Made by a program: the position numbers and the translations under genes. DNA of 64,000 nucleotides from Acidocella sp. 20-57-95 (GTDB lineage: Bacteria; Pseudomonadota; Alphaproteobacteria; Acetobacterales; Acetobacteraceae): NCBI GenBank assembly GCA_002255575.1, contig NCAT01000003.1, positions 126,341 through 190,340 on the forward strand. The letters run 5' to 3'. This document shows, in pieces, positions 1-45,597 of the stretch. The notes below the pieces were generated by a model. That model did no database searches. It was given only the letters and a program-made list of their open reading frames with translations, and was not told the DNA's origin. Position 1 is the first letter of the stretch, and each line of letters starts with the position of its first letter.

Positions 1-783
1 TACATGAAGCATTACAGCAACATCTTTAAGCCAACCGAAGTGCTGATGATGCTCTCGGCCTTCTCAAATATTGAGACCGTGCATATCGCCGCCTATTCGC
101 ATCTGCTCGATACCGTGGGCATGCCGGAAGTGGAATATACTGCCTTCCTCAAATACAAGGAGATGAAGGACAAATACGACTACATGCATGCATTCAGCAT
201 GGATAGTAAGCACAACATAGCTAAAACCCTCGCAGCCTTTGGGGCTTTTACCGAAGGGCTGCAATTATTTGCCTCCTTCGCTATTTTGCTGAACTTCCCG
301 CGCTTTAACAAAATGAAAGGCATGGGCCAGATCATTACCTGGTCGGTGCGTGACGAGTCGCTGCATTGCGAATCGATCATCAAGCTCTTCCGGACCTTCG
401 TGCAGGAAAACCCGGAAATTTGGACCGAGGAGCTGCGCCGGGAACTGTACCTTACTTGCGCAACCATCGTGGACCATGAAGACGCGTTCATCGACCTCGC
501 GTTTGAGCTTGGGCCGGTAGAAGGGCTAACAGCCGAGGGGGTGAAGCGTTATATCCGCTACATCGCTGACCGCCGCCTGACCCAGCTCGGGTTGAACCCG
601 CTTTTCCATGTCAACAAAAATCCGCTGCCTTGGCTGGATGAGATGTTGAACGCTGTTGAACATGCGAATTTTTTCGAGAATCGTTCGACCGAGTACAGCA
701 AAGCCTCGACGACCGGCAGTTGGGAAGACGCTTTCGCGGATTTTGAGACGGTTGAGCCCGCAAATATCCTTCCCGCTGAATAA
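1..783 (+). CDS. nrdB: Ribonucleotide reductase class I beta subunit, 5' part outside window
   Basis: Di-iron motifs (ETVHIAAY, EGLQLF, RDESLH) and C-terminal NFFENRSTEYSK. Confidence 0.95.
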   Translation, partial: YMKHYSNIFKPTEVLMMLSAFSNIETVHIAAYSHLLDTVGMPEVEYTAFLKYKEMKDKYDYMHAFSMDSKHNIAKTLAAFGAFTEGLQLFASFAILLNFPRFNKMKGMGQIITWSVRDESLHCESIIKLFRTFVQENPEIWTEELRRELYLTCATIVDHEDAFIDLAFELGPVEGLTAEGVKRYIRYIADRRLTQLGLNPLFHVNKNPLPWLDEMLNAVEHANFFENRSTEYSKASTTGSWEDAFADFETVEPANILPAE

Positions 784-803
784 ACTATAGGCTAACCTGA
801 AGC

Positions 804-836
804 CAACCTGGCATCTAAAGATGCCAGGTTGCTTTT
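804..836 (+). terminator. Intrinsic terminator after nrdB
   Basis: Perfect 12-bp stem CAACCTGGCATC-TAAA-GATGCCAGGTTG followed by CTTTT. Confidence 0.75.
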
Positions 837-1056
837 CTACCTGAAGTTGCTTTTTATAATCATACCGGGTATGCATTAAGCCCGGAAGGAAACGACAACC
901 CTGCTGATATTTTGTATGAAACGCGATCAATTAGAACATTATTTTGGAATGTTGTAACGCGGCATGATTTTGCGGTAAGAGTACTCTCACTAAACTTTAT
1001 CACAGGAATTAGATTTATTTTGATTGTTTTCCGGTGAGTCCAAAATTCGAAATGGA

Positions 1057-1344
1057 ATGATGAGCGTGAGTGAGAGTGATGACACCGGCACCGAGGGGCT
1101 AAAACAAACAGGTGCCACGCCACGTTACAGTCGGCGCCTCTCTGATAAAATTCTCATCGCATTTCACCATGCTTGCGACCAAGGCGATTACGAGATCGCT
1201 GAACAACTGCTCCACATCCTGGAAAATATGTTAACCCGCAGGACCGTCTCGCCAGACGCTAACCGCCGCAAAAGTATCGAGAGCTTGGTCGCAGCGCATG
1301 AACGGCTTTGGCATTTGCGCCACCCGGAACGCAATTTCGGCTAG
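1057..1344 (+). CDS. Small helical hypothetical protein (RRLSDKILIAFHHACDQ motif)
   Basis: Standalone ORF after an AT-rich intergenic region; ATG at 1057 or 1060 preferred over TTG 1024. Confidence 0.75.
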   Translation: MMSVSESDDTGTEGLKQTGATPRYSRRLSDKILIAFHHACDQGDYEIAEQLLHILENMLTRRTVSPDANRRKSIESLVAAHERLWHLRHPERNFG

Positions 1345-1354
1345 CGTGATCACG

Positions 1355-2122
1355 CTACCACTTGGTTGTGCGCGCCACCAAGGCAAAATAGAGCGGCGCT
1401 GGCAAAATTCGCAAAAACCGCAACGGCCAAGCCAGTCCACCCGGGAAGGCAATCAGGAATTTGTTTTTATCAAGTTCCCGCAAAATTATCTTGGCGGCAT
1501 CCGAGACTTCCATCAAGAACGGCATCGGGAATTTGTTTTTGGCGGTAAGCGGAGTTTTCACAAACCCTGGTAAAATAACTGAAATCCCAACATTGGCGCG
1601 GTCAAGGTCAAATTTCAGGCTTTGTGCCATGGCGAGCAACCCGGCCTTGGTGGTACTGTAGGTGACAGCCCCGGGCAGGCCGGCAAGGCCAGCCAACGAT
1701 GAAACAATACCGATTTGGCCGCGTTTGGCAGCGAGCATATTGGGCAAAATCGCAGCGAGGCAATTGGCGGTACCGAGCAAATTCACATCAATTTGTGTTT
1801 TGAATTTGGCGATGTCAAAATCCGGCGCGGTATCGCGCAAATAGGTTCCGGCATTCAAAATTACCCGCACGATTGGCCGGCCTGCTGCAGCTTCGATTTG
1901 TAACACCGCAGCACGCACCGCCACTTCATCGGTGATATCCAGCGGAAACACTAATATTTTTCCAGGGTGTGCGGCTGCTAAGCTTTCTAATTCATCAGCG
2001 CGGCGTGCTGAAACAGCGACGACCCAACCAGCTTGAGCCAGTTGCGCGGCAACCTCGCGGCCAATGCCGCTTGATGCCCCTGTTACCCAAGCAATGCCAT
2101 CTGACGCTGTTGGTATTTTCAT
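1355..2122 (-). CDS. SDR family oxidoreductase
   Basis: TGASSGIG Rossmann motif, NAG, YSTTK catalytic motif. Confidence 0.93.
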   Translation of the reverse strand: MKIPTASDGIAWVTGASSGIGREVAAQLAQAGWVVAVSARRADELESLAAAHPGKILVFPLDITDEVAVRAAVLQIEAAAGRPIVRVILNAGTYLRDTAPDFDIAKFKTQIDVNLLGTANCLAAILPNMLAAKRGQIGIVSSLAGLAGLPGAVTYSTTKAGLLAMAQSLKFDLDRANVGISVILPGFVKTPLTAKNKFPMPFLMEVSDAAKIILRELDKNKFLIAFPGGLAWPLRFLRILPAPLYFALVARTTKW

Positions 2123-3657
2123 AGACCTGCGCCCCCTCTATCGATCATATCTAACACATAAGCAGCACGCTCCCGCAATGAATTCACTTTATCTGGAGCC
2201 ATTTTACGTAAACTGCGTACTGGCATCGCCATGCGGGGGTTATTCTCGAATTTTTCAGCATGGCGGGCGATAAAATCCCAATAAAGTGCGTTGAAGGGGC
2301 AGGCTTTTGCACCAGTTGCCAAAGTCACGTCGTAATGGCAGCCGGCGCAATAATCGCTCATACGGTTTATATAGGCGCCCGATGCCGCATAGGGTTTAGA
2401 GCCGACAACGCCGTGGTCAGCGTGCAAAGCCATACCGCGGGTGTTGGGCATCTCCACCCATTCATATGCATCGGCATAGACCGCCAGATACCATTCATCC
2501 ACCGCATCCGGGTGCAGCCCTGCTAACAGTGCAAAATTACCGGTTACCATCAAGCGTTGAATATGGTGCGCATAGGCATATTGCATGGTCTGGCTAATGG
2601 CATCGCGCATGCAACGCATTTTGGTCTCGCCGGTCCAGTAAAAGGCGGGTAGTGGACGCGTGGCATTCAAGCCATTGCGGGTGGCGTAGTCTGGCATATG
2701 CAACCAATAAATGCCGCGGATAAACTCACGCCAGCCAAGAATTTGGCGAATGAAGCCTTCAACAGCGTTGAGTGGCGCTGCCCCTGCCCGGTAGGCTTGC
2801 TCAGCCGCCGCGCATAAATCCAGCGGGTCCAGCAAGCCTAAATTTAAGGGCGCTGAAACCAGACTATGGAACATGGTCGGCTCACCGGCCGCCATCGCGT
2901 CTTGCCAGTCACCAAAGCCAGTTAGCCGGTGTTTGATAAAATCTGCGAAGCCGGTCTTCGCTTCTTTGGCAGTCACCGGATAATCAAACATATCTAGCGC
3001 GCCGCAATGATGGCCGAATTTTTCCGCCACCAAAGCTAAAACTTGCTGCGTAATTTCATCTGGGACAAACCGGCGGGGCCTCGGTGGTTTAATGTCTTTT
3101 GGTAATTTCTTGCGGTTTTCGGAATCGTAATTCCATTTACCGCCAACCGGCACATCCCCATCCATCAGGATATTTTTACGCCGCCGCATCTCGCGGTAGA
3201 AAAACTCCATCCGCAGGCTGGATTTTCCTGCCGCCCACTCTCTAAAAAACGCATGGGTTGCCAAAAACCTGTCGTCAGCGCGTAAATCAACCGGCACGCC
3301 CAGCTTCGCCTGCCAAGTTTGCATATCTTGCAAAACGCGCCACTCGGCAGCTTGCGTGGCGACCACACCGGCGGGCCGCAATTCTTGCACCGCGCGCGCA
3401 ACCTCCCCAGCCAGCGTTTGGGTATTTTGCGGGTCATCAAGCCGAATATATCGCACCTGCACGCCGCGCGCGCTAAGGGCTGCGGCAAAATGCCGCATTG
3501 CTGCCAGCACCAGAGCGATTTTCTGCTTATGATGGGGCACATAACTGCACTCGCCCATCACTTCGGCCATCAACACAACATCTTGGGCGGCATTCAGGCC
3601 AGCCAACGCCGAGAGTGATTCGGAAAGCTGATCACCGAGAATAATTCTTAAGTTCAC
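2119..3657 (-). CDS. phrB: Cryptochrome/photolyase, FeS-BCP (PhrB/CryB) type
   Basis: ILGDQL N-terminus, HHKQKI, HHIQRLM and four Cys (MRCM, YCAGC, ACPF). Confidence 0.9.
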   Translation of the reverse strand: MNLRIILGDQLSESLSALAGLNAAQDVVLMAEVMGECSYVPHHKQKIALVLAAMRHFAAALSARGVQVRYIRLDDPQNTQTLAGEVARAVQELRPAGVVATQAAEWRVLQDMQTWQAKLGVPVDLRADDRFLATHAFFREWAAGKSSLRMEFFYREMRRRKNILMDGDVPVGGKWNYDSENRKKLPKDIKPPRPRRFVPDEITQQVLALVAEKFGHHCGALDMFDYPVTAKEAKTGFADFIKHRLTGFGDWQDAMAAGEPTMFHSLVSAPLNLGLLDPLDLCAAAEQAYRAGAAPLNAVEGFIRQILGWREFIRGIYWLHMPDYATRNGLNATRPLPAFYWTGETKMRCMRDAISQTMQYAYAHHIQRLMVTGNFALLAGLHPDAVDEWYLAVYADAYEWVEMPNTRGMALHADHGVVGSKPYAASGAYINRMSDYCAGCHYDVTLATGAKACPFNALYWDFIARHAEKFENNPRMAMPVRSLRKMAPDKVNSLRERAAYVLDMIDRGGAGL

Positions 3658-4298
3658 GATGTTATTTTCTGGTATGATTCATCGCCGTTGACGTGAAATT
3701 CGAGCCCAGACCAAGTTTCATTCTGGTCGTACCAAACGCTCAAATGCAGCTTGCCTGTTACATCAAAACGTTGCGCCACGATAAACCCGCCTTCTGCGGT
3801 GGGCAGCTTGTTCCAACCTGGTGAATTGACAATCGCAGGGTAGGAATGCGCCGTTTGGATGTTCAGGATTGTGCCATTCAGCATGTTCTTGTTCCAATAG
3901 GTCAGCGGCATGGTGTTCGGTGGGGCGGTATAGGTTGGGTAGCTCTTGTCGGGGTCGGTGTGGTTAATACCGGTCACCGTATAGCCATCGGCAGATTTTG
4001 CAGCCTGCACTTCAAGATTGGTGCCGTTATCGTTGATCATGCTGTGCAGGCTCTGGAACACCCCGCCCGACCATTTTTCCACCGCCTTTAAGCTATAGCG
4101 AAACACCGGAATCGACGCGATGGTTACCACCAACCCAATATTGATATCGACCGCCAGGTCGTCCCCTGTTTGGGTGAAATTTAAGTGATGTTCACCAATC
4201 GGCGCGCCGTTGCGTAACACCTTGAAAGCAAGGCTGTTATTCGCAGGAATCGGCAATGCAAAAGCGGCCGCGCTCAGTAAAAAACGCCGTCGATCCAT
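3654..4298 (-). CDS. DUF6134-like exported protein
   Basis: Tat-like MDRRRFLL leader, FKVLRNGAPIGEH motif, AGGAG RBS, 4-nt overlap with photolyase start. Confidence 0.7.
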   Translation of the reverse strand: MDRRRFLLSAAAFALPIPANNSLAFKVLRNGAPIGEHHLNFTQTGDDLAVDINIGLVVTIASIPVFRYSLKAVEKWSGGVFQSLHSMINDNGTNLEVQAAKSADGYTVTGINHTDPDKSYPTYTAPPNTMPLTYWNKNMLNGTILNIQTAHSYPAIVNSPGWNKLPTAEGGFIVAQRFDVTGKLHLSVWYDQNETWSGLEFHVNGDESYQKITS

Positions 4299-4371
4299 GC
4301 AATTTGGTCTCCTTAAGTTTCAGTCGCTAGATAGGGGCGACAGCGGCGGCGCGCCATGGCACAATATCGTT

Positions 4372-4893
4372 ATGCACCAGTTATTCCTGCTCCGGCACGC
4401 TAAAGCTGCCCGCCCTTCTGCCGAAATCTCGGACCATGATCGGCCGTTGACACAGGAAGGCCTGCGCGCAACCGCTAAATTGGGCCAGTTCATGCGTAAG
4501 GCCGGGCTCGCGCCGGATGTGGTGCTCGTCTCCTCCGCACTGCGGACCCAGGAGACGCTTGAAGCCTTGGAGGCAGCGCAGGTCTGGGATGAGCGGCCGA
4601 ATATCGACACAATACCCGGCCTTTACATGGCAACACCCATGCAAATCAGAGATTTTGTGCGTGAGCTGCCAGAAACAGTTCGCAGTGCTATGGTTATCGG
4701 CCACAATCCGGGGTTGCATGATGCCGCGTTGGGTTTAGCGAGCGCGGCTGGCCAAAAGCCAGAATTTACCCAACTTTCAGAGGGTTATCCAACCGCCAGC
4801 CTGTCAGAATTCCTGATCACCACGCAGTGGCATAAAGTTGGAACAGGTACCGGCACGTTGCAGCGGTTCGTTCGTCCGGTTGACCTCAAGTGA
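4372..4893 (+). CDS. sixA: SixA-type histidine phosphatase
   Basis: LLRHAK, VSSALRT and GHNPG motifs; start moved to ATG 4372. Confidence 0.85.
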   Translation: MHQLFLLRHAKAARPSAEISDHDRPLTQEGLRATAKLGQFMRKAGLAPDVVLVSSALRTQETLEALEAAQVWDERPNIDTIPGLYMATPMQIRDFVRELPETVRSAMVIGHNPGLHDAALGLASAAGQKPEFTQLSEGYPTASLSEFLITTQWHKVGTGTGTLQRFVRPVDLK

Positions 4894-5004
4894 TTGCTGC
4901 GACTGCGAAGGTTGCCTTTTGTGCGGGCAAGGGATTTAATACCTTGCATTAAGCAGCTTCCTAACTGACCACCTCACCCAACAATATTTTCAGAGGTTAT
5001 TCGC

Positions 5005-6318
5005 ATGCCCCATACGGCAACCAGCAAAAACATCGGCAGCGCCACGCTGAGCTATAACGGTAAAACGGCAACTCTCCCTGTGTTGGAAGGCTCAATGGGG
5101 CCCGCCGTTGCCGATATCCGCAAAATCCAGGGTGATTTGGGGGTTTTCACCTTCGACCCTAGCTTCGGTGCCACCGCCTCCTGTGAAAGCTCGATCACCT
5201 ATATCGATGGTGATGAAGGCGTATTGCTCTATCGCGGTTACCCGATCGACCAGCTGGCCGAACATTCAACTTTCCTCGAAGTTGCGCATTTGCTGCTGTT
5301 CGGGAACCTGCCCACCACCGCTGAACTGGATCATTTCACCCACGGCGTCACCATGCACACCATGTTGCATGAGCAAATCCGCCGCTTCTGGGATGGGTTC
5401 CGCCGCGATGCCCACCCGATGGCGATGCTCTGCTCGGTCGTTGGCGCCATGTCTGCCTTCTACCCGGACAGCATCGATATCAACGACCCGCGCCAGCGCG
5501 AAATCAGCGCCTACCGGATGATCGCTAAAATCCCTACCATCACCGCCTGGGCGCATAAATACAATGTTGGGCAGCCCTTCATGTATCCGCGCAATGATCT
5601 CAGCTATTCTGAGAACTTCCTCTACATGTTCCATGCTGTGCCGCCGCAAACCTATGTGCCGAACCCGATTCTCACACGCGCCATGGACCGCATCTTCATC
5701 CTGCACGCCGACCATGAGCAGAACGCCTCGACCTCCACGGTGCGTCTGGCCGGCTCCACCGGTGCCAACCCATTTGCCTGCATCGCCGCCGGCATCGCCT
5801 CACTCTGGGGTCCCGCCCATGGGGGTGCCAATGAGGCCGTGCTGAAAATGCTCGCCGAGATTGGCCATAAGGACAATATCCCGGCCTTTATAGCGCAGGT
5901 GAAAGACAAGAACTCCCATGTCAAACTGATGGGCTTTGGCCACCGGGTTTACAAAAACTTTGACCCGCGCGCGAAAATCATGCAGCGCACCTGCTACGAA
6001 GTGCTCGGCGAACTTGGCATCAAGAACGACCCGATGCTCGACCTGGCCATCGAGCTTGAAAAAATCGCCCTCGAAGACCCCTACTTCGTCGAGCGCAAAC
6101 TCTACCCGAACGTGGATTTCTACTCAGGCATCATCCTGAAGGCGATGGGCTTCCCCACCACCATGTTTACCCCCATCTTCGCGCTCGCCCGTACCGTCGG
6201 CTGGATCAGCCAGTGGATGGAAATGATCGAAGACCCGCAACAACGCATCGGCCGCCCCCGGCAGGTATACACCGGCGCCCCAACCCGCGACTACGTGCCC
6301 ATCGATAAGCGGGGCTGA
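5005..6318 (+). CDS. gltA: Citrate synthase (type II)
   Basis: [35 protein letters not shown]. Confidence 0.98.
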
Positions 6319-6348
6319 TGCTCAAGGGGTTGGGTTGGTGGGGTTGTG

Positions 6349-6538
6349 AAGAAAGGCCAAGGGGCTCTGCCCCTTGGAACCCCGCTAAGGGCGCGGCCCT
6401 TAGAACCTTTAAGGTTAAGAAAAACGGGCGCGCCGCGGTGTTGAAACACCAATGGACGCCCGTTTTTTTTAACCTTCAAAAATGGTTTCCAAAGGCGAGC
6501 CTTTGGCGGGGTCCAGGGGCAGAGCCCCTGGCCTTCTT
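6349..6538. repeat. Composite palindromic element, copy 1 (MITE/RPE-like)
   Basis: Imperfect inverted arms of about 57 bp, each with two hairpins, around a long central hairpin; homologous to 16205-16369. Confidence 0.85.
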
Positions 6539-6568
6539 AACCGTCCTACCAACCAACCCTCCTCGAGC

Positions 6569-7624
6569 ATGACCCGTTCATCGGGCACCATGGCGCGGTT
6601 GCTGCGCTGGCTGGCGGAGTCGCCAGCGCGGAATTTGGTGTTTGGGCTGGTTTATATGGTGGTTGTCGTTGCGGGGGCGACGGCGGCTTATGTAGCGGAT
6701 GGCTGGAGCTGGGGGGATGCGTTTTACTTCGTCATCATTACGGTATTTACGGTCGGCTATGGTGAGCTTCACCCGGTTGCGACGTTTGACCTGCGTTTTA
6801 TTACCATTGCCACGATTATTTTGGGCTGTACGGGGATTATTTTTCTCACCGGCGCGCTCGTGCAGTTCATTACCATTGCACAGATTCAGCTTTTGCTGGG
6901 AACCAAACGAATGAAAACGCAGATCGAAAAGATGGCTGGCCATGTGATTATTTGTGGCTATGGGCGTATTGGCCAGATGTTGGCCGATGAGTTGAAAGCG
7001 GGCGGCACTGAATTTGTGGTGCTGGAGTTAAATGAGCAGCGTTTTCATGAATCGGTGGCGGCGGGCAACCTGACAGTTCGCGGCGATGCGACTGACGAGA
7101 CGGTTTTGCATTCGGTTGGCATCGCAAAGGCGCGGGCATTGGCGAGCGTCGTGCCGAATGATGCGGCGAATGTGTTCATTACCTTATCGGCGCGCAACTT
7201 AAATAAACAGTTGGAAATTATCGCGCGCAGCGAGGCCCCGAGTACCAAAAGTAAATTGCTGCAAGCGGGCGCCAACTCAGTGGTGGAGCCCACCCATATT
7301 GGGGCCGAGCGGATTGCGCAGCTTATTATTTTTCCGCGCACATCATCATTCACTGATGGCTCGGACCGGATGCGCACACTGGGGATGGGGTTGCGCACGC
7401 TGGGGCTGGATTTAGAGGTGATGGCGGTGGCGGCCGATAGCCCCCTAGCGGGCGCCACCATTGAAACCGCTGAACATCAGGCAAGCGGCAGTGTGTTCGT
7501 GATTGCAGTGAACCGTAAAAATGGCGAAACCCTTACCCGCCCTGACCCCGCCACCATTATTGAAGCGGGCGACGGCGTGGTTGTTATTACCCGGTCTGGA
7601 CGCAGCACCCCGAAAATCAGCTAA
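6569..7624 (+). CDS. Potassium channel with TrkA-N/TrkA-C (RCK) domains
   Basis: Two TM helices around TVFTVGYG filter, ICGYGRIG RCK motif; start 6569 or 6590. Confidence 0.9.
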   Translation: MTRSSGTMARLLRWLAESPARNLVFGLVYMVVVVAGATAAYVADGWSWGDAFYFVIITVFTVGYGELHPVATFDLRFITIATIILGCTGIIFLTGALVQFITIAQIQLLLGTKRMKTQIEKMAGHVIICGYGRIGQMLADELKAGGTEFVVLELNEQRFHESVAAGNLTVRGDATDETVLHSVGIAKARALASVVPNDAANVFITLSARNLNKQLEIIARSEAPSTKSKLLQAGANSVVEPTHIGAERIAQLIIFPRTSSFTDGSDRMRTLGMGLRTLGLDLEVMAVAADSPLAGATIETAEHQASGSVFVIAVNRKNGETLTRPDPATIIEAGDGVVVITRSGRSTPKIS

Positions 7625-7695
7625 CACACCCTCTCGATTTTACGGCAGTGCAGCATTACATCCGACTCAACGTAAACTTTTAAAGGCTTTGTTCC

Positions 7696-8760
7696 ATGCC
7701 CTCTTTGTTCGACAGTTTGAAACTTGGCGACATCACACTCCCCAACCGCATCATCATGGCCCCCCTCACCCGCGCCCGCGCCGGGGCACAGCGCATGCCC
7801 AATGAGTTGATGGCACAATATTATGCTGAACGTGCAACCGCCGGTTTGATTATCTCTGAAGCCACCTCGGTCACCCCTATGGGCGTTGGCTATGCGGATA
7901 CGCCCGGCCTGTGGTCGGCTGAGCAAGTTGAAGGCTGGAAGCTTATCACCAAGGCCGTGCACAAGGCCGGTGGCCGGATTTTTGCCCAGCTTTGGCATGT
8001 GGGCCGTGTCTCAGCGCCGATGTTCCTGAATGGCGAATTGCCGGTGTCTGCCAGTGCCATCGCCCCAAAAGGCCATGTCAGCCTGGTGCGCCCGCAGCAG
8101 GAATATGTCACGCCGCGCCCGCTTGAAACATCCGAAATCCCCGGCGTGGTGGAAGCATATCGCAAAGCCGCCATGAACGCCCAGATGGCTGGGTTTGATG
8201 GTGTGGAAATCCACGGCGCCAATGGCTACCTGCTTGACCAGTTTCTGCAAGACAGCACCAACCACCGCACGGACAATTACGGCGGCAGCATTCAGAATCG
8301 TGCCCGCCTGATGCTGGAAGTTACCGACGGCGTGCTTTCTGTTTGGGAAGCTGGTCTGGTCGGCATGCATCTTGCCCCACGCATGGACGCGCATTCGATG
8401 GGCGATTCCGACCGCTTGGGCACCTTCTCCTATGTGGCCCGCGAGCTCGGTGAACGCGGGCTCGCCTTCATTTGCGCCCGCGAGCACAAAGCCGAAGACT
8501 GGATTGGTCCCAAACTCAAGAAAATCTTCGGTGGCACCTACATCGCCAATGAAGGTTTCACCAAAGACTCGGCCCAAGCGGTGCTGGATACCGGTGAAGC
8601 CGATGCTGTCGCCTGGGGTAAGCTCTTTATCGCCAACCCAGACCTTGTCGAGCGCTTCAGAACCAACGCGCCCCTCAACGAACCCAACCCAAGCACTTTC
8701 TACGCCGAGGGCGCCACCGGCTATACCGACTACCCGGCACTGCAATCCAAAGCTGCCTGA
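7696..8760 (+). CDS. Old yellow enzyme family alkene reductase (NemA-like)
   Basis: NRIIMAPLTRARA, EIHGANGYLLDQFL, DNYGGSIQNRAR. Confidence 0.93.
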   Translation: MPSLFDSLKLGDITLPNRIIMAPLTRARAGAQRMPNELMAQYYAERATAGLIISEATSVTPMGVGYADTPGLWSAEQVEGWKLITKAVHKAGGRIFAQLWHVGRVSAPMFLNGELPVSASAIAPKGHVSLVRPQQEYVTPRPLETSEIPGVVEAYRKAAMNAQMAGFDGVEIHGANGYLLDQFLQDSTNHRTDNYGGSIQNRARLMLEVTDGVLSVWEAGLVGMHLAPRMDAHSMGDSDRLGTFSYVARELGERGLAFICAREHKAEDWIGPKLKKIFGGTYIANEGFTKDSAQAVLDTGEADAVAWGKLFIANPDLVERFRTNAPLNEPNPSTFYAEGATGYTDYPALQSKAA

Positions 8761-8776
8761 TTTGAGGTTGAGGCGC

Positions 8777-8806
8777 GTAAGGCCAGGGGTTATGCCCCTG
8801 GCCTTA
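8777..8806. repeat. Collapsed copy of the palindromic element; probable bidirectional terminator hairpin
   Basis: TAAGGCCAGGGG-TTATG-CCCCTGGCCTTA between convergent genes; first 13 nt identical to 16205-16217. Confidence 0.7.
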
Positions 8807-10372
8807 GCCCCAAAACAACCGGCTTTTGCGAAAGGCGCGCCAGGTGTCCGAGAGCTTGGCGTCATCGGCAGTGGCGCTGTGGCTGCACCAGCCAAGGATG
8901 ATGCCGGCGGCCCGGGTATCATTGCCGGTAAGGTGGCTGACGGTTTCGGTGGCGGTGATAAGGTCGTTGAAGCGGCCGAGCTCGTCTTGCAGGGCGGCGG
9001 CGGCTTTTAAGTAGGCGCGGGTTTGCGATTTGCTGGGAAAAAGCGGGCCGAATAGATCGGCAGCGTAGCGGAGCTTTTTTAAGTCAATCCGCAGCTGGTG
9101 GCGGTCATGCGGCGCAAGGGTGGCCAGATGCTTGCCACGTTTGAGAAGTTTATTGTGCAGGCGGGCGAGGTTTTGGCTGGCAAAATCCTGCGCGGGGGCG
9201 GTCAGGCGCGGCAGCGCTTCGCCGGATAGCGCATTGCGCCAGCCATAGCGGGCGACGAAGGCTTGTACTGAGAGCACGAAGCGCGTGGTGCTGGGGGCAG
9301 CAAGAAGCGCGCGTACTGTTTCGTAAGCGGCGGCGCGGCGGCGCTCACAATCGGCCAGGATGGCCGCAAATCCGGGCTCGTTCGGGAAAGCGGCAACCGG
9401 GCCTTGGCGCAGCAGGTTTAAAAAAACATCGAGGTTGCGGGCCTCTCCCATCAGGGCCGCGACATTTTTGGCTTCGGCGCGAAAGACAAGGAATTCCGGC
9501 GCGGGAAAGGCGTGGTGGAAAAGCCCGAGCATGGCCCTTAAGCGGCGCATTGCCACGCGCATCTGGTGAACCGCGCCGATTTGGTCGCCATCTTCAAAGG
9601 CCGGCCAGTTGGCGGCGAATTGTGTGAGGCAGCCATTAATCCCCTGGGCGATCGCTTCATCAACGGTAGGGTTGCCTTGAAGGTCAGTCTTGGCACGCGC
9701 GGCTTCAGGGGATTTGCCGGTTGCAAGCATAGCCCCGCGGTCTGACTTTGCGAGGCTGCTTAAACGAACTGGATATTGTTCGGCGAGTGCAATGCCGAGC
9801 CGGTACAAATCGGCACTATCGCCCGCTTTCAGCTCCATTTCGATTTCGCGGATCGGCCGGCTGATACTACCTGCAATGATGAAACCGGAATCGAACGCCA
9901 CCTCAATATCGCTGGTGGCAGTCTGCACGCGCTGCGTGAGGCGGCGGATATCAGTTTCATAGACCGCAGTGAGAACCCGGTCTTCGATGACGTCTGCGAT
10001 CATCGCGGCGACATTGGGGCCAAATAAAGCTGGGTCGGGCTGGTTGTTGAGGGTGGGGATTTCAATTTCGCCACGCTCGAACAGACCGCCCGACAGACCG
10101 CCACTCCATTTCAGTGTCATCATATAGCCGCGGCGCTGGCCACGCATACGGAGGACCATTTTGTGGCGCTGCAAATCACCACGGGGCGTATCAAAATACA
10201 CGGTGCGCAGGCGTTTGGAGGGTAAGCGCCGTCCGGCAGCGCCAAGCGCTGACCATTTTTGGCTGGCCTTAAAGCCGGAGTCGCTTACCAGGAATTTTAG
10301 CTCAAGCTCGCGGTTTATCGGCTTCAGGAGCGGAATAATTGGGCTGACCGGAACCAGATTGGTATCGAGCAA
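8804..10372 (-). CDS. CYTH plus CHAD domain protein
   Basis: ELELKF and EIEMELK CYTH motifs; HQMRVAMRRLR and HQLRIDLKKLRY CHAD motifs. Confidence 0.9.
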   Translation of the reverse strand: MLDTNLVPVSPIIPLLKPINRELELKFLVSDSGFKASQKWSALGAAGRRLPSKRLRTVYFDTPRGDLQRHKMVLRMRGQRRGYMMTLKWSGGLSGGLFERGEIEIPTLNNQPDPALFGPNVAAMIADVIEDRVLTAVYETDIRRLTQRVQTATSDIEVAFDSGFIIAGSISRPIREIEMELKAGDSADLYRLGIALAEQYPVRLSSLAKSDRGAMLATGKSPEAARAKTDLQGNPTVDEAIAQGINGCLTQFAANWPAFEDGDQIGAVHQMRVAMRRLRAMLGLFHHAFPAPEFLVFRAEAKNVAALMGEARNLDVFLNLLRQGPVAAFPNEPGFAAILADCERRRAAAYETVRALLAAPSTTRFVLSVQAFVARYGWRNALSGEALPRLTAPAQDFASQNLARLHNKLLKRGKHLATLAPHDRHQLRIDLKKLRYAADLFGPLFPSKSQTRAYLKAAAALQDELGRFNDLITATETVSHLTGNDTRAAGIILGWCSHSATADDAKLSDTWRAFRKSRLFWG

Positions 10373-10439
10373 AATTCACCCTGATGAATAATGAGGACTG
10401 AAACGCTACAGGAGAGTGACAGTAAAAAGCAATTACTCT

Positions 10440-11624
10440 CTAGGTGCCATGATCCTGATCAATTCGGCTGCTGAGGCGTTCCGCTGCAAATACAAAAATC
10501 CCTGAGGTCAGGGCGGCGACAGTGCCGATGCCAAATAGCAGCTGGTAGCTGCCGGTGGCATGAAACAAAGTGGAAAAAGCGGCAGCCGTGCCGGCTTGAA
10601 ACACCGCATAGGTCATGGTGGCCAGTCCCCAGTTGGCGGCAAGCTTGCTTGGCTCGACCAAGCTCGCGATCGCGCCGGAGGTAAGCAACACCGCCCCTAA
10701 GCCCATAGCGCCCACGCCAGCGGCTGAGACTGCCAACCAAACCTGGTTGCCTGTGAGCAGTGGCACGGCCACCGCCGCCGCCATAATCACATAGCCAAAG
10801 GTGAGTGTGCGCAGAAACCCAAAGCGGTCAGCAATGCGGCCCAAAATTGGTGGCCCGAAAGCGGCGGCAATACCAAGAACGGCTGAAACATCCGCCCCGG
10901 CAGCAACGCCACGTTGCAGGCCGATGGCGATGAAGCTGGCCAGAAATAACATATGCGGAACAAAGCCAAAAGCGCACAGCGAGTAGCCGATAATCAGCAA
11001 CAGGACAGGCTTATTGAGGACCTGCTTGCCTGGTTTTTTTACGGCGGGGGTGATGATGGCAGGCGGCATCATAAGCCAAACCGCGATCGTCGCTGCGAAG
11101 CTGAAAGCGCCCAGCATTGCCCAGGTCGCCGGCAGACCAAAAACCAAAATCCGCGGAATCAGCAGGCCGGAGACTAGAATGCCGGTACCCATCCCCGCGA
11201 AGGTAATGCCCCCCACCTGCCCGCGCTTGGCAGGCGGCGCCCGGCCCACCACGGCGGCGGCCATCAGCACCATCAGCCCGCCACCGGTAATGCCGGTCAG
11301 CAGCCGCCAAATAGCGGCATAGAGAATCCCGCCATTAAAGGCCGAGGCGACCAGGCTGAAGGCAGTCAGCCCCATTAACACCGTGATCGCGGCGCGCGTA
11401 TGGATAGGTTTGTGCCAAGCGCGCATGGATGCAGCACCGATAAGATAGCCAACAAGATTGACGGTCCCCAGCCAGAAGGCGGCAGAGGCGGTGAACCAAT
11501 GTGCCGCCACCAGGGCCGGAACCAAAGGCGCGTAGCCGAAGCGGGCGATCCCTACCCCCACCAGCATTGCCAACAACCCACAACTGGCCGCTCGGTAAAG
11601 CGGGAATGACTGTTCAGTTTCCAT
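10440..11624 (-). CDS. MFS transporter, YbfB/YjiJ-like
   Basis: GIARFGYAPLVP motif, about 12 hydrophobic segments, LGRIADRFG. Confidence 0.85.
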   Translation of the reverse strand: METEQSFPLYRAASCGLLAMLVGVGIARFGYAPLVPALVAAHWFTASAAFWLGTVNLVGYLIGAASMRAWHKPIHTRAAITVLMGLTAFSLVASAFNGGILYAAIWRLLTGITGGGLMVLMAAAVVGRAPPAKRGQVGGITFAGMGTGILVSGLLIPRILVFGLPATWAMLGAFSFAATIAVWLMMPPAIITPAVKKPGKQVLNKPVLLLIIGYSLCAFGFVPHMLFLASFIAIGLQRGVAAGADVSAVLGIAAAFGPPILGRIADRFGFLRTLTFGYVIMAAAVAVPLLTGNQVWLAVSAAGVGAMGLGAVLLTSGAIASLVEPSKLAANWGLATMTYAVFQAGTAAAFSTLFHATGSYQLLFGIGTVAALTSGIFVFAAERLSSRIDQDHGT

Positions 11625-11745
11625 GCCCCCGTACTTAGGGGACAGCTATGCTGCCAGGAAGGGAGGCAAATTCACCCCAGCCATGGCGTTGCAGCCTATA
11701 GGTTGATATAGAACGCTCTCATTTTACGAATCTATAAGGACGCAC

Positions 11746-12473
11746 ATGGCCCGCCGCCGGCAGCTTTACGAAGGCAAAGCAAAAATCCTGTTTGAAGGGC
11801 CGGAGCCCGGAACCTTGGTGCAATATTTCAAGGAATCACCGGCAAGGGTGTGCTGAATAACCGCATCAGCGAATTCCTGATGATCAAATTGGCTGAGATC
11901 AACATCCCGACCCACTTCATTCGCCGCCTGAATATGCGCGAGCAGTTGATTAAAGAGGTCGAGATTATCCCGATTGAGGTTGTGGTGCGTAATGTGGCTG
12001 CCGGGTCGCTTTCCTCGCGTCTTGGCATTCCGGAAGGCACCCGCCTGCCCCGCAGCATTGTGGAATATTACTATAAAAACGACCAGCTCGGTGACCCGAT
12101 GGTGGCCGAGGAGCATATCACCGCGTTCGGCTGGGCCACCCCACCGGATATGGATGATATTGTGCATCTGACATTGCGCATTAACGACTTCCTGACCGGA
12201 TTATTCCTCGGCGTTGGTATCACGCTCGTTGATTTCAAAATCGAGTTCGGCCGGTTGTTTGAAAACGAAGATATGCGGATTGTGCTGGCCGATGAGATCA
12301 GCCCGGATAATTGCCGCCTGTGGGATGCCAAGACCAACGAGAAAATGGACAAGGACCGGTTTCGCCGCGATCTTGGCAAAATCGAAGAAGCCTATCAGGA
12401 AGTGGCGCGCCGCTTGGGGATTCTCCCCGAAGCCGGCACCCGCGACATGAAGGGCCCGGAGATGATGCAATGA
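11746..12473 (+). pseudogene. purC: SAICAR synthetase with internal deletion and frameshift
   Basis: ATG 11746 reads [29 protein letters not shown] then stops at 11854-11856; the PurC frame resumes at 11835 ([10 protein letters not shown]) and continues to VDFKIEFG and LADEISPD. Confidence 0.85.
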
Positions 12474-12712
12474 AGGCGATTGTTACCGTTATGCTGAAAG
12501 ACGGCGTACTGGACCCGCAAGGCAAAGCCATTGGCCACGCCTTGAACAATCTGGGTTTTGCGCAGGTAGGCGATGTGCGTGCCGGTAAAATCATCGAGTT
12601 GGAATTGGCCGAAACCGACGCTGCCAAGGCCAAGCTGGCGGCAGAAGATATGGCGAAAAAGCTGCTCGCCAATCTGGTGATTGAAAGCTTTAAGGTCGAG
12701 ATCGCGGCTTAA
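12470..12712 (+). CDS. purS: FGAM synthase subunit PurS
   Basis: [13 protein letters not shown] and LLANLVIE motifs; ATGA overlap with purC. Confidence 0.95.
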
Positions 12713-12753: not shown

Positions 12754-13416
12754 ATGCTCCAAACCGGCATTCTTCTCTTCCCCGGCATCAACCGCGAGCG
12801 CGATATGGCGATTGCGGTTGAGCAAAGCTTTGGCCGTGCGCCGAAGATGATCTGGCATAAGGAAACTGACCTGTCCGGCATCGACCTGGTGATTATCCCC
12901 GGCGGCTTCTCCTTTGGCGATTATCTGCGTTGTGGCGCGATGGCGGCGCAGAGCCCGGTGATGCAGGCGGTGAAAGCCCATGCGGCGCGCGGTGGCTATG
13001 TGCTGGGCGTTTGCAACGGCTTCCAAATTCTCACCGAAGCCGGGCTATTGCCGGGCGCATTGTTGCGCAATGCGGGGCTACGCTTCCTCTCGATGGATAC
13101 CATGCTGCGGGTTGAGCGTAACGACACAATCTTCACCTCGCACTACCAAAAAGGCCAGGTGTTCCGCGCGCCGATGGCGCATGGCGATGGCAATTACACC
13201 GCCGACCCCGCCACGCTGGACCGGCTGGAGGGCGAAGGGCTGGTGGCGTTCCGCTATGCTGATGGTAACCGCAATGGCTCAGCACGGGATATTGCCGGGA
13301 TCTATTCTGAAAATCGCCGGATTTTGGGCCTGATGCCTCACCCTGAGGATCTGGTGGACCCGCTGATGGGCGGGATCGATGGCAAACCACTTTTTGACTC
13401 ACTGGCAGCCGCATGA
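12754..13416 (+). CDS. purQ: FGAM synthase glutaminase subunit
   Basis: [25 protein letters not shown]; start moved to ATG 12754. Confidence 0.95.
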
Positions 13417-15590
13417 AGCCCGTTAATATTGAACTCGCGAAATCCTTTGGTCTGAACGCTGAGGAATACGCCAAGGTCCTCGAAATTATGGGCCGCACGC
13501 CGAGCTTTACCGAGCTTGGTATATTCTCGGTGATGTGGTCGGAACATTGTTCCTATAAATCTTCCCGCGTCTGGCTGAAAACCCTGCCGACCAAGGCACC
13601 CTGGGTGATCCATGGGCCGGGCGAAAATGCCGGCGTGATCGATATCGGTGAGGGTCTGGCGGCGATTTTCAAGATGGAATCGCACAACCACCCCAGCTTC
13701 ATCGAGCCCTACCAGGGTGCAGCCACCGGTGTGGGTGGCATTTTACGAGATGTGTTCACTATGGGCGCCAGGCCGATTGCGAACCTGAACGCCTTACGTT
13801 TTGGCGACCCAAAACTGCCGGTTACCAAGCGCGTGGTGGATGGCGTGGTGCGCGGCATTGGCGGCTACGGCAATTGCGTCGGCGTGCCGACCGTGGGTGG
13901 TGAGGTGAATTTCCACCCCGCCTATAATGGCAACCCGCTGGTGAACGCCATGACGGTTGGTATTGCCGCGACTGATAAAATCTTTCTCTCGGCGGCGGCT
14001 GGCATCGGCAACCCCGTTGTGTATGTCGGCTCCAAAACCGGCCGGGACGGTATTCATGGCGCGACCATGGCCAGCACCGAATTTGATGCCAATTCCGCTG
14101 AAAAGCGCCCGACCGTGCAGGTGGGCGACCCGTTCACCGAAAAACTCCTCATCGAAGCCTGCCTGGAACTGATGCAGACCGACGCGATTGTGGCGATCCA
14201 GGATATGGGTGCGGCTGGCCTCACGTCCTCATCCGTCGAAATGGCCGGCAAGGGTGGCGTGGGCATTGAACTGACGCTCGATAATGTGCCGCAACGTGAA
14301 ACCGGCATGACTGCCTATGAGATGATGCTCTCGGAAAGCCAGGAGCGGATGCTGCTGGTGCTCAAGCCCGAGCGTTCCGACATGGCGCGCGCGATCATTG
14401 AGAAATGGGATTTGGATTACGCCATTATCGGTAAGATCACAGATACGGGGCGCATCGTCATCACCCATAAGGGCGTGGTAGAAGCTGATATTCCGCTGGC
14501 ACCATTATCGGATGAAGCGCCGCTGTATCATCGCCCGATTATTGAAACACCAAAGCCCGCACGACTCCGCGAAACGCATGACCCGGTTGGTTTTGAGGTG
14601 GCGTTGTTGAAACTGATCGGCTGCCCGGATCTCGCCTCGCGCCGTTGGATTTTCGATCAGTATGATTCCACCGTGGGCGGCCAGACAGTAAAACGCCCGG
14701 CGCAGGCTGATGCCGCCATCGTGCGGCTGGAAGGTACCAACCGTGCCTTAGCGATCACGACTGATTGCACGCCGCGGTATTGCGCGGCGGACGCTGAAGC
14801 TGGTGGTGCACAAGCCGTCGCAGAAGCCTGGCGCAATATTACCGCCACCGGCGCCGTGCCGCTGGCGGTGACTGACAATATGAATTTCGGCAACCCGGAA
14901 AAGCCCGAGATCATGGGGCAATTTGCCGCCGCCATTAAAGGGATGGGTGCGGCCTGTCTGGCGCTCGATTTCCCGGTCGTGTCCGGCAATGTCTCGCTCT
15001 ATAATGAGACTGAAGGCAAAGCGATTTTGCCAACGCCTGCCATCGGTGCAGTTGGCGTATTGGCAGACGTTTCGCTTGCCACCGGCATTGCCATCGCGCC
15101 TGGGCAGGAACTGGTCCTGATCGGTGAAACCAAGGGTGAGCTTGGCCAATCGCTGTGGCTGCGGGAAATCCTGGGGGCGGAAGACGGTGCGCCGCCGGAA
15201 GTTAACCTGCTCAATGAACGCGAAAATGGCGATTTCGTACGGGCCCAAATCCTCTCCGGCGCCGTCAAAGCCTGTCATGACCTCTCCGATGGCGGCCTCG
15301 CCGTCGCCCTCACCGAAATGGCGCTGGCGGGTGACACCGGCATCATTTTGCACCCCGCCCCGCCGCATTTGCCCGCCCACGCCTATTGGTTTGGCGAAGA
15401 CCAGGCCCGCTATGTTCTGGCGGTTACCAACCCGCATGACATCCTCACCGCCGCCCACGCGGCCGGCATTCCGGCACGGCATATCGGCCACACCGGCGGT
15501 AACAGTTTGACACTTGCGGGCAGCAACTCCATATCTTTGGCTTCCCTGCGCGACGCCAATGAGGGCTTCTTTCCCGCCTGGTTCGCCTAA
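13413..15590 (+). CDS. purL: FGAM synthase subunit PurL
   Basis: [38 protein letters not shown]. Confidence 0.97.
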
Positions 15591-30004: not shown

Positions 30005-31183
30005 ATGAAACCATCCTCGACAACAGACACGGCGCGACAAATTTCGCTGCTCATCGTCCTCAGCGCGTGCGGCACGTTGAGCCTCGTCACGTTTATTTGG
30101 GCGGTCTTGAAACAGCCGGTTTTTAACAATGATTTCATGGGAATATGGTCGTTTGCCCAGTATGCGGTGAGCCAACCGGCAGCCGGGATATACGATGGCG
30201 ACCAGATCGGCGCATTGCAACATCAGCTGTTCCCCGGCTTACGGTCGATCTATGCGTTTGCATATCCGCCGCCGTTTCTATTGGCCGTCGGCTGGCTCAC
30301 AAAGTTCAGCTATACCAGCGCGCGGGTGATCTGGTGCGGCAGCGGCATGGTTTTGCTCAGCGCGGCCATTTGGGCGCTGCTGACGCCTCGTCGCCGGTGG
30401 CTTGGCATTTTTGCCAGTCTGGTCGCACCTGCCAGTTATATCAACGCCATCGGTGGCGAGACCGGCTGGTTTACCGCCGCATTTTTGTTGGGCGGCTTTG
30501 CCTTGCTGCCAAGGCGGCCAGCTTTGGCCGGCATTGCGTTTGGGTTGCTTAGCCTGAAGCCGCAATTGGCCTTATTAGTGCCCTTTGCCTTGCTCGGCGG
30601 TGGCTATTACCGAACCTTCCTGAGTGTCACGATCACCGTGTTTACGCTCTACTTAACGGCATATCTCGTATTGCCTCATGATGTCTGGCCGGCGTGGCTG
30701 AACCACATAGCTGGCTTTCAAAGCCTGGAATTAAGCAAAGCGCTCCCGCTTACCGCCATTATGGTAACTGTAACGGCAAATCTCATAACGCTGGGTCTGC
30801 CGCCGGCATTCGTGACGGCCGCGCAAGCGATGACCAGCGTGACATGCGCGGTTCTAACCTTTCTGAGTTTTCGAAACGGCAATACCCGCCTCGCTACCGC
30901 CGCCTTATTGGTGGGCAGCATCCTCGCGACGCCGCATGGCTTTGTTTATGATACCATCCCGCTAACTGCAGCAATGTTCCTTTATAGTGAGGCTGCTTGC
31001 ATAACATGGCCAATTTTGATGCTTGGGCTGGTGATTTATCTAAGCCCGATTCTGGTATTAACGCAGGCCAACCAGTGGTTTTTATATGCCGTCCCGAGCG
31101 CTCTGCTTTACTTGGCCATGCTGCGCCTTGCTTTTGCCACACCAGCGCGCGAAATTCCGAAATATGAGCCAAACATTAATTAA
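30005..31183 (+). CDS. GT87/DUF2029-like membrane glycosyltransferase (GT-C)
   Basis: DF in first loop, FAYPPPFL, GETG, LSLKPQL, many TM helices. Confidence 0.75.
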   Translation: MKPSSTTDTARQISLLIVLSACGTLSLVTFIWAVLKQPVFNNDFMGIWSFAQYAVSQPAAGIYDGDQIGALQHQLFPGLRSIYAFAYPPPFLLAVGWLTKFSYTSARVIWCGSGMVLLSAAIWALLTPRRRWLGIFASLVAPASYINAIGGETGWFTAAFLLGGFALLPRRPALAGIAFGLLSLKPQLALLVPFALLGGGYYRTFLSVTITVFTLYLTAYLVLPHDVWPAWLNHIAGFQSLELSKALPLTAIMVTVTANLITLGLPPAFVTAAQAMTSVTCAVLTFLSFRNGNTRLATAALLVGSILATPHGFVYDTIPLTAAMFLYSEAACITWPILMLGLVIYLSPILVLTQANQWFLYAVPSALLYLAMLRLAFATPAREIPKYEPNIN

Positions 31184-31604
31184 CCCATCCGAAGCCGCCA
31201 TGTTCCAGGGCGTACTGGCCCGGCGGCTATGCGCCTTCGCGGTTGACCTGATGATGATGACCGTTCTCGGCTGGGTTGTCGCAACGAATATATTTATTTT
31301 CGGTCTGTTTACCTTCGGGTTGGGGTTTTTCATGTTTCACGTGATGCCTTTCTTCCCGCTGGTTTATTACACATTGCTGGTGGCGACCGGTGGTACGTTG
31401 GGCCAGCGCATGTTCGGCCTCTCGGTGCGCCAGGATATCGACCTGTCCCCACCCTCACCGGCCCAGGCCCTGGCCTGGACTGTGCTGCTCTGGCTCAGCT
31501 TTTTCGTGTTCGCATGTCTGCCCTTTGCGATGGCTTTGGTGGGTGCCAGGCATCGTGCCGGGCATGATTTATTCTCCGGGCTTGTGATTATTCGCAATCG
31601 CTAA
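31164..31604 (+). CDS. RDD family membrane protein
   Basis: RRLCAFAVD, TLGQRMFGL, RAGHDLFSG. Confidence 0.85.
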   Translation: MSQTLINPSEAAMFQGVLARRLCAFAVDLMMMTVLGWVVATNIFIFGLFTFGLGFFMFHVMPFFPLVYYTLLVATGGTLGQRMFGLSVRQDIDLSPPSPAQALAWTVLLWLSFFVFACLPFAMALVGARHRAGHDLFSGLVIIRNR

Positions 31605-31648
31605 AACAATGCTTGACGCGGCTACGGACAAAGCCAAACATATAGGGA

Positions 31649-32425
31649 ATGAGCTTTAAACCCGCCCGTCGTCCGCATTTTTTTTACACTACCGCACCGC
31701 TGCCTTGCCCCTACGTGGATGGCCGTACGGAGCGGAAGGTTGTGACCGAACTGGCCGGGGTGAGTGCTGAGAGCCTGCATGACCGGCTTTCGCGCGGCGG
31801 GTTCAGGCGTAGCCATAATATCGCTTACGCGCCGGTTTGCCCTAGCTGCAATGCCTGTGTGCCCATCCGTATCCGCGCGCTTGATTTTGTGCCCAACCGC
31901 ACCCAGCGGCGCATTGCCAAACTAAATACCGACCTGAGCGTGCGAGAAATGCCGCCGCGTGCGACCGCTGAACAGTACCAGCTATTCCAGCGCTACCAGC
32001 AGGCCCGCCACGGCGATGGCGACATGGCAACCATGAGCTTCTACGACTATCGCGCCATGGTTGAAGATACCCCGATCGAGACATCAATCATCGAGTTCCG
32101 GGACCGTCAGGAGCGGTTGCTGGGTGCCTGCTTGATCGACCGGCTCGGCGACGGGCTGTCTGCTGTTTACAGCTTCTTCACCCCTGACGCTGATGACCGG
32201 TCACTTGGTACATTGGCCATTTTATGGCTGGTGGCGCGGGCGGCGGAGATGGACATGCCGTATGTGTATCTGGGCTATTGGGTCGAAGAGAGCCGGAAAA
32301 TGGCGTACAAGGCGAAGTTCCGCCCCAGCGAAATTCTCAAAGGCGGACAGTGGCGCTCCATCGAGGATAACGCCACCACCTGCGGGACATTAAACCTCAA
32401 TCTGCAACTTTCTCCAACGCGCTGA
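31649..32425 (+). CDS. bpt: ATE1-like aminoacyl-tRNA protein transferase (Bpt)
   Basis: CPY, GFRRS, C..CNAC, SAVYSFF, YVYLGYW, KMAYK. Confidence 0.9.
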   Translation: MSFKPARRPHFFYTTAPLPCPYVDGRTERKVVTELAGVSAESLHDRLSRGGFRRSHNIAYAPVCPSCNACVPIRIRALDFVPNRTQRRIAKLNTDLSVREMPPRATAEQYQLFQRYQQARHGDGDMATMSFYDYRAMVEDTPIETSIIEFRDRQERLLGACLIDRLGDGLSAVYSFFTPDADDRSLGTLAILWLVARAAEMDMPYVYLGYWVEESRKMAYKAKFRPSEILKGGQWRSIEDNATTCGTLNLNLQLSPTR

Positions 32426-32542
32426 ATTTTGGCCAAAAAACGCGCCTCCAAACGCGAGTGCTGTTATTTACAACCATAGATTGACGACATAAACTCGCAT
32501 CCAGCTGTGAGGTAACATGCTCGCCATCCCCGCCCCCATCTA

Positions 32543-34639: not shown

Positions 34640-34770
34640 GCATCCTGCGCGAGCCGCCCCATCTTGCAGCGCCGCTTTTAGGCGCTGCGATTCTGCCGTT
34701 ATACACAACCTTGGCAACGCCACATTAACAGCCATGAGAGGCGTGGTCTGCTCATGACAGGCTGGTTGCA

Positions 34771-34799: not shown

Positions 34800-34811
34800 C
34801 TCTCTCACGGT

Positions 34812-45482: not shown

Positions 45483-45502
45483 AAATTTCTACACTCCACA
45501 TC

Positions 45503-45591: not shown

Positions 45592-45597
45592 TTCTTA

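What the first reader, a model, noticed from the sequence alone, without database searches (positions are those of the whole stretch)
11746..11860. purC broken by an out-of-frame deletion of the conserved DDATAF segment in an otherwise intact pur operon
Seen: TTC AAG GA|ATC ACC GGC AAG at 11827-11846 joins YFK directly to ITGKG in another frame, and the first frame stops at 11854. Established: alphaproteobacterial PurC has about 13 residues here (DDATAFN..KKG.), part of the active site, so roughly 37 nt are missing (estimate). Frameshifting or restart at GTG 11850 would not restore them. The rest of purC and purS, purQ, purL show no decay, so the lesion is recent or an artefact. If real and with no second purC, the strain would be a purine auxotroph that can still make AIR for thiamine.
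Basis: partly seen in the sequence, partly recalled or inferred. Interest (0 to 1): 0.7.

Follow-up and report, generated by a model that had tools for sequence, protein, structure and literature searches.

The report
purC gap absent from public copies
The purine-synthesis gene purC really is broken by a 37-base gap in this copy of the sequence, but every public copy of the same bacterium's DNA has those 37 bases and an intact gene, so the break is almost certainly a defect of this copy and not biology.

Summary
purC starts at 11746, changes frame at 11834|11835 and stops at 11854-11856. The rest of the gene continues in another frame to 12473.

The biological reading fails. The window belongs to an Acidocella sp. 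population from mine-drainage and aquatic metagenomes. Five NCBI MAG assemblies and Logan contigs of three runs from two studies match the window exactly on both sides of the junction. All carry the same 37 nt (CGACGCGACCGCGTTTAACGCCCAGAAAAAGGGTACG) and a 254-aa purC.

The only public contig long enough to hold the window (DAIDEG010000001.1, 352,720 nt) is 100.000% identical to window 1-45,762 apart from these 37 nt. Other public contigs reproduce the rest of the window letter for letter.

The repaired protein is exactly OYV60123.1. No product that only a deleted gene would give is on record. The gap has no microhomology, flanking repeat or hairpin, so neither slippage nor k-mer collapse explains it.

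Verdict: a defect private to this copy (assembly, record or handling). The organism is not a purine auxotroph. A rare real variant cannot be fully excluded without raw reads. Interest is low.

The parts
11746..11856 (+). 5' fragment of purC: 29 native codons (M1-K29, including the ATP-site GKAK loop), then 7 out-of-frame codons (ESPARVC) and TGA
   Evidence: Residues 1-29 are identical to the 254-aa PurC of public records.
11834..11835 (+). Junction where 37 nt (CGACGCGACCGCGTTTAACGCCCAGAAAAAGGGTACG) are absent from the window. There is zero microhomology.
   Evidence: joint 11834|11835, 'both' = 0, inserted letters listed; blastn: two 100% HSPs separated by 37 nt in each locus; 14 of 14 same-population loci carry the same 37 nt.
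11835..12473 (+). 3' part of purC (I43 to Q254 of the intact protein) in the -1/+2 frame relative to the start. The first possible restart is GTG 11850 (207 aa).
   Evidence: TIGR00081 positions 44-274, 185.3 bits; 100% identical to the intact genes.
12470..12712 (+). purS (80 aa), intact. Its ATG overlaps the purC stop (ATGA).
   Evidence: exact product on record, PF02700.
12754..13416 (+). purQ (220 aa), intact
   Evidence: gene call on L015 9342-10004, which is window 12754-13416; PF13507; 100% identity.
13413..15590 (+). purL (725 aa), intact
   Evidence: exact product on record; AIRS/AIRS_C domains.

Best explanation
The 37-nt gap in purC is a defect of this particular copy of the sequence. 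It was introduced at assembly, deposition or later handling of the text. It is not a feature of the organism. The organism is an Acidocella sp. population known from mine-drainage and aquatic metagenomes, and it has an ordinary intact purC-purS-purQ-purL cluster and makes a normal 254-aa SAICAR synthetase.

Shown: the gap exists in the window. The same locus, with zero mismatches on both sides, carries the 37 nt in every public assembly and contig set examined. The whole window is otherwise reproduced letter for letter by public contigs.

Inferred: the window derives from, or is a sibling assembly of, DAIDEG010000001.1, and the gap arose as an artefact. I cannot say at which step it arose.
For: 1. 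Logan contigs of runs X1 and X2 (aquatic metagenome, 2022) and X3 (mine drainage, 2017) match window 11500-11834 and 11835-12500 with 0 mismatches. They hold 37 extra letters at the junction. X4 contigs end inside the same insert.
2. Five NCBI MAG assemblies have a 254-aa purC at this locus: GCA_027308665.1, GCA_035427845.1, GCA_035427385.1, GCA_027311305.1 and GCA_002255715.1. So do two Logan contig sets. In 14 of 14 fetched same-population loci the insert is the identical 37-mer, and it restores [13 protein letters not shown] in frame.
3. DAIDEG010000001.1 (352,720 nt) is the only contig on record long enough to span the window. It is 100.000% identical to window 1-11834 and 11835-45762. The 37 nt lie at record positions 100328-100364.
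4. The remaining 18 kb of the window is reproduced exactly by other public contigs. The gap is therefore the only difference in 64 kb, which argues against a generally noisy assembly or a diverged strain.
5. The repaired protein is exactly OYV60123.1 / HQT64550.1 / HQU03956.1. The 36-aa stub and the 207-, 197- and 182-aa restart products are not among about 15 billion proteins or 153 billion gene positions.
6. More distant strains in X5 and X6 carry synonymous versions of the same 37 nt. No contig in 8 runs crosses the junction in the deleted form.
7. The boundaries share no bases ('both' = 0). No direct repeats flank them, and the hairpin fold is no better than shuffled sequence (z = +0.82). 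Slipped mispairing, the usual route to a natural deletion, is therefore not indicated.
Against: - I could not see raw reads. All runs were available only as Logan contigs, which drop rare variants, so a minority deleted allele is not excluded.
- The identity of the window's source record is inferred, not shown. The window is exactly 64,000 nt with the gap included, which would fit a source record that already carries the gap.
- The lack of microhomology also argues against the commonest assembler error, collapse between repeated k-mers. The step that produced the artefact is therefore unexplained.
- The MAGs and the Logan contigs may come from overlapping sets of runs. The number of truly independent data sets is at least two studies and three to four runs, not eight.
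Confidence: 0.88

Rival explanations
1. This is a real, very recent deletion in one cell line of the population, captured by the window's source assembly. That lineage lacks SAICAR synthetase and is a purine auxotroph, fed purines by its prototrophic clonemates or the community. It can still make AIR for thiamine.
For: The lesion is clean. The surrounding operon shows no decay and is 100% identical to the intact records, as expected for a deletion that has just happened. Logan contigs cannot exclude minority alleles (tool caveat). The window length of exactly 64,000 nt with the gap included is compatible with a source record that has it.
Against: No public assembly, contig or gene call of this genotype has the junction or its products. 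The only contig long enough to be the source has the 37 nt. A metagenome assembler reports the majority allele, and the majority allele is intact in every run examined, at depths of 7 to 68. No microhomology or repeat is present of the kind that usually underlies spontaneous bacterial deletions.
Confidence: 0.09
2. This is a functional split or recoded purC. Either a programmed -1 frameshift near 11830, or a separate 36-aa N-terminal peptide plus a 207-aa protein restarted at GTG 11850, would together give activity.
For: The two frames overlap by about 20 nt, and a GTG lies at 11850.
Against: Any such product lacks D30-T42, including the T-A-F-N substrate-binding residues that are present in every solved PurC. 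There is no X XXY YYZ slippery site at 11820-11840 (read from the sequence). No relative shares the arrangement: the 120 best homologues listed are nearly all 254 aa, and all 14 same-genotype copies are in frame. The restart would separate the ATP-site GKAK loop from the body of the enzyme.
Confidence: 0.01

Closest known systems
PurC (SAICAR synthetase, EC 6.3.2.6; TIGR00081 / PF01259) of Acidocella sp. 21-58-7, OYV60123.1, and the identical HQT64550.1 / HQU03956.1
   Same: With the 37 nt restored, the window's gene encodes this 254-aa protein residue for residue. The DNA is 100% identical on both sides of the junction, and the purC-purS-purQ-purL context is the same.
   Different: The window lacks 37 nt (codons D30-T42) and therefore changes frame and terminates at 11854-11856.
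Solved PurC structures: 3KRE (closest match, E = 7.5e-83), 2YWV, 2GQR/2GQS, 4FE2, and the SAICAR synthetase domain of human PAICS (2H31)
   Same: The repaired protein aligns end to end. The segment FKD-x-x-TAFN-x-x-K is present in the alignments shown. In human PAICS, Thr40-Ala41-Gly42-Asn43 belong to the SAICAR site and Thr40 hydrogen-bonds the aspartate substrate (PMC9376930).
   Different: The window allele has no counterpart of this segment. The equivalence T33-A34-F35-N36 = Thr40-Asn43 rests on the alignment offset and on my own knowledge of the human sequence. It was not shown by an explicit alignment printed here.
Local indel errors in metagenome-assembled genomes, and frameshifted pseudogenes reported by annotation pipelines
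   Same: There is a single frame-breaking indel in an essential, otherwise perfect housekeeping gene of a MAG, and other assemblies of the same population contradict it.
   Different: Typical assembler deletions lie between repeated k-mers and typical sequencing indels sit in homopolymers. This gap is 37 nt, blunt, and has no repeat.

Membership tests
PurC / SAICAR synthetase (TIGR00081, PF01259) | A whole-protein match to the family model above the curated cut-off | tested here: not met
   The window's longest purC reading (212 aa from 11835) scores 185.3 bits against a cut-off of 189.9, and covers profile positions 44-274 only. The 36-aa stub matches nothing. The repaired 254-aa sequence is identical to proteins that NCBI names PurC.
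PurC / SAICAR synthetase (TIGR00081, PF01259) | The substrate-site segment (K-D-x-x-T-A-x-N) is present and contiguous with the N-terminal GKAK ATP loop | tested here: not met
   The segment is absent from the window. It is present in all 14 same-genotype copies and in the solved structures aligned. Its role is taken from PMC9376930.
PurC / SAICAR synthetase (TIGR00081, PF01259) | Gene context purC-purS-purQ-purL | tested here: met
Natural deletion pseudogene (slipped-strand mispairing type) | Short direct repeats or microhomology at the deletion end points | tested here: not met
   'both' = 0 at joint 11834|11835. The only nearby direct repeat (AAGGGT, 18 nt apart) does not match the boundaries.
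Natural deletion pseudogene (slipped-strand mispairing type) | The deleted allele is seen in independent reads or assemblies of the organism | tested here: not met
   None appears in 8 runs' contigs, 5 MAG assemblies, the protein collection or the gene-position index. Raw reads were not available.
Programmed ribosomal frameshift / split gene | A slippery site, and conservation of the frame change in relatives | tested here: not met
   No slippery heptamer lies at 11820-11840. All relatives are in frame.
Assembly or record artefact | The lesion is contradicted by the reads from which the assembly was made | tested here: inconclusive
   Contigs built from the reads of X1-X3 contradict it. I could not establish which run or runs the window's assembly came from, and I could not see raw reads.

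The most novel reading that the evidence does not exclude
The gap is a genuine, just-arisen purC-null allele inside an otherwise clonal acid-mine-drainage Acidocella population. That lineage would be a purine auxotroph living on purines released by its own prototrophic clonemates, and would be a very early snapshot of 'Black Queen' gene loss.
Probability: 0.07. Interest if true: 0.35.

Novelty: not a real feature. Interest (0 to 1): 0.06.

Why it matters
As biology it matters little. The organism has a normal purine pathway, and no claim of auxotrophy should be made from this sequence.

It matters as quality control. A single frame-breaking gap in an essential gene of a metagenome-derived sequence was contradicted within minutes by sibling assemblies and run-level contigs. 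Metabolic reconstructions that take such a lesion at face value would wrongly score the genome as lacking SAICAR synthetase.

If the gap were real, it would be a modestly interesting case of newly arisen auxotrophy within a clonal environmental population.

Tried and rejected
- **Programmed frameshift or restart at GTG 11850.** Rejected. There is no slippery site, 13 substrate-site residues would still be missing, and no relative shares the arrangement.
- **Second purC in the window.** tblastn finds only the broken locus. The rest of the genome could not be scanned, and the question is moot because the population's purC is intact.
- **Microhomology, direct repeats or a hairpin as the deletion mechanism.** None found.
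- **Species-representative genomes (left-flank 26-mer).** Only Acidisphaera sp. L21 and a Neomegalonema MAG matched. In the Acidisphaera locus a 37-nt in-frame segment fills the same position; the other locus was not read there. The window's own species was not hit, perhaps because it is masked or not a representative.
- **JGI metagenome contigs.** There were 0 hits for the left flank and 0 for the deleted junction. The population is simply not in that collection, so this says nothing either way.
- **Run index queried with the junction alone.** 0 runs, but only 3 words were sampled.
- **Looking for a 237,884-nt contig hinted at as an alternative source.** It never appeared. It does not carry the window's exact 581-aa ABC protein, so it is unlikely to be the source.
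- **Covering window 46-64 kb on DAIDEG010000001.1.** The tool never showed that contig for this part. Other public contigs covered the stretch instead.

Full report
**1. The observation.**
An ORF starts at ATG 11746 and encodes [29 protein letters not shown]. It then reads ESPARVC and stops at TGA 11854-11856. From 11835 another frame reads [14 protein letters not shown]... without interruption to TGA 12471-12473. The first start codon in that frame is GTG 11850 (207 aa).

The downstream part matches the NCBIfam purC equivalog TIGR00081, but only from profile position 44. It scores 185.3 bits, just under the 189.9 cut-off. The 36-aa stub matches no family. The best homologues are Acidocella-type PurC proteins, nearly all of 254 aa, and they read [21 protein letters not shown]. 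The gene is therefore purC, and it lacks 13 codons' worth of sequence out of frame.

**2. The size and nature of the lesion.**
I laid Logan contigs of four metagenome runs on window 11500-12500. Contigs of X1 and X2 (aquatic metagenome, 2022) and X3 (mine-drainage metagenome, 2017) match 11500-11834 and 11835-12500 with zero mismatches. Between 11834 and 11835 they carry CGACGCGACCGCGTTTAACGCCCAGAAAAAGGGTACG. Inserting it gives TTC AAG GAC GAC GCG ACC GCG TTT AAC GCC CAG AAA AAG GGT ACG ATC ACC, which reads [17 protein letters not shown], in frame.

The tool reports no bases shared between the two sides of the joint ('both' = 0). In X4, contigs end inside this segment because two co-occurring strains differ there by synonymous changes.

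**3. What the window is.**
The repaired 254-aa protein is in the public collection letter for letter, as OYV60123.1 (MAG Acidocella sp. 21-58-7) and as HQT64550.1 and HQU03956.1 (MAG TPA Acidocella sp.). I used the window's own PurS, PurL, MFS transporter and several other proteins as exact-match probes. These recovered the locus from five NCBI MAG assemblies:
- GCA_027308665.1
- GCA_035427845.1
- GCA_035427385.1
- GCA_027311305.1
- GCA_002255715.1

They also recovered it from Logan contigs of SRR21686645, SRR21686646 and SRR5352534. Every record that includes the purC site has a called 254-aa SAICAR synthetase gene. All 14 fetched same-population copies carry the identical 37-mer.

**4. The rest of the window.**
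blastn shows that DAIDEG010000001.1 is 100.000% identical to window 1-11834 and 11835-45762. This contig is 352,720 nt and is the only one on record long enough to span the window. The 37 nt lie at record positions 100328-100364 on the complementary strand. Window 45220-59794 is identical to a 53-kb Logan contig, and 57331-64000 is identical to DAICZC010000071.1.

So the whole 64 kb is reproduced exactly by public DNA of the same genotype, and the 37-nt gap is the only difference. That rules out a noisy, indel-rich assembly and a diverged strain.

**5. Searches for the deleted form.**
- No gene with the 207-aa product is on record.
- The 36-aa stub and the 207-, 197- and 182-aa restart products are absent from about 15 billion proteins.
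- No run is returned for the junction alone.
- Contigs of four further runs either carry their own synonymous versions of the 37 nt (X5, X6) or break there. None crosses in the deleted form.
- The JGI metagenome collection holds neither the left flank nor the junction, so it is uninformative.
- The scan of species-representative genomes found the 26-nt left flank only in Acidisphaera sp. L21 and a Neomegalonema MAG. The Acidisphaera locus has a 37-nt in-frame segment at this position.

**6. Mechanism.**
Spontaneous bacterial deletions of this size usually lie between short direct repeats, by slipped mispairing (established knowledge). Collapses in de Bruijn graph assembly need a shared k-mer. 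Neither applies here:
- There is no microhomology.
- The only nearby direct repeat (AAGGGT, twice, 18 nt apart) does not fit the boundaries.
- The intact region folds no better than shuffled sequence (z = +0.82).

The gap is therefore blunt and arbitrary. This does not tell me which step produced it. It fits a record or handling defect at least as well as any biological process.

**7. Consequence of the lesion if it were expressed.**
The missing residues D30-T42 include T-A-F-N. In human PAICS the SAICAR-site model includes Thr40, Ala41, Gly42 and Asn43, and Thr40 hydrogen-bonds the aspartate substrate (PMC9376930). The correspondence follows from the alignment offset to 2H31 and from the motif. 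I did not print an explicit alignment, so this step is partly from my own knowledge.

The segment is present in the solved PurC structures whose alignments were printed (3KRE and 2YWV). There is no second purC in the window.

**8. Verdict.**
Contigs built from reads of several runs, and every sibling assembly, contain the missing bases.

The best explanation is a defect private to this copy of the sequence (confidence 0.88). The organism, an Acidocella sp. of acidic mine waters, has an ordinary intact purC-purS-purQ-purL cluster. A real low-frequency or sample-specific deletion (0.09) cannot be excluded, because only contigs and not raw reads were available, and because the window's source record is inferred rather than known. 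A functional recoded or split gene is effectively excluded (0.01).

Classification: not a real feature. Interest is low.

Noticed in passing
P0001, a 385-aa protein on a 1339-nt NCBI contig; not in the window: This 'PurC' has its C-terminal ~150 residues repeated from a second, diverged strain (...[26 protein letters not shown]...). It looks like a chimeric short-contig assembly and not a real fusion. It topped the homology list only because of the doubled match.
   Followed up: no
whole window; runs X1/X2 (2022, aquatic metagenome) and X3/X4 (2017, mine drainage metagenome): The same Acidocella genotype is 100% identical over tens of kilobases in two studies five years apart. Either a very stable clonal population or related sites would explain it. 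I could not tell which.
   Followed up: partly
window 11834|11835, in run X4: Logan contigs of X4 break inside the 37-nt segment because two co-occurring strains differ there synonymously (GCGTTT/GCGTTC, GGTACG/GGCACC). The site is a branch point in assembly graphs, which could make local assembly errors more likely there.
   Followed up: partly
window 10440-11624 (-): The MFS_4/MFS_1 transporter next to purC is called as 394 aa in some records and 375 aa in others. This is only a difference in start-codon choice.
   Followed up: no
window 62237-63169 (+): A 310-aa ORF with no Pfam match is called in the NCBB01000053.1 and DAICZC010000071.1 contigs (310 and 308 aa). DAOMBO010000018.1 has no called gene in the corresponding ~1.1 kb. 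This may be a strain-variable spot.
   Followed up: no
window 46000-64000; For genes in this part of the window, the look-up tool never displayed the 352,720-nt contig, although each table lists a block in the 0.2-1 Mb class. Identity of the window to DAIDEG010000001.1 is therefore shown only for 1-45,762. The rest is covered by other contigs.
   Followed up: partly
window 12470-12473 and 13413-13416: The purC stop overlaps the purS start (ATGA), and the purQ stop overlaps the purL start. This is the usual translational coupling in this operon.
   Followed up: no
window 30005-35762 (+): There is a run of cell-envelope genes: a GT87-family glycosyltransferase, an RDD protein, arginyl-tRNA-protein transferase-like ATE_N/ATE_C, and a 698-aa protein with a weak DUF6311 match followed by an ABC ATPase. 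I did not examine them.
   Followed up: no
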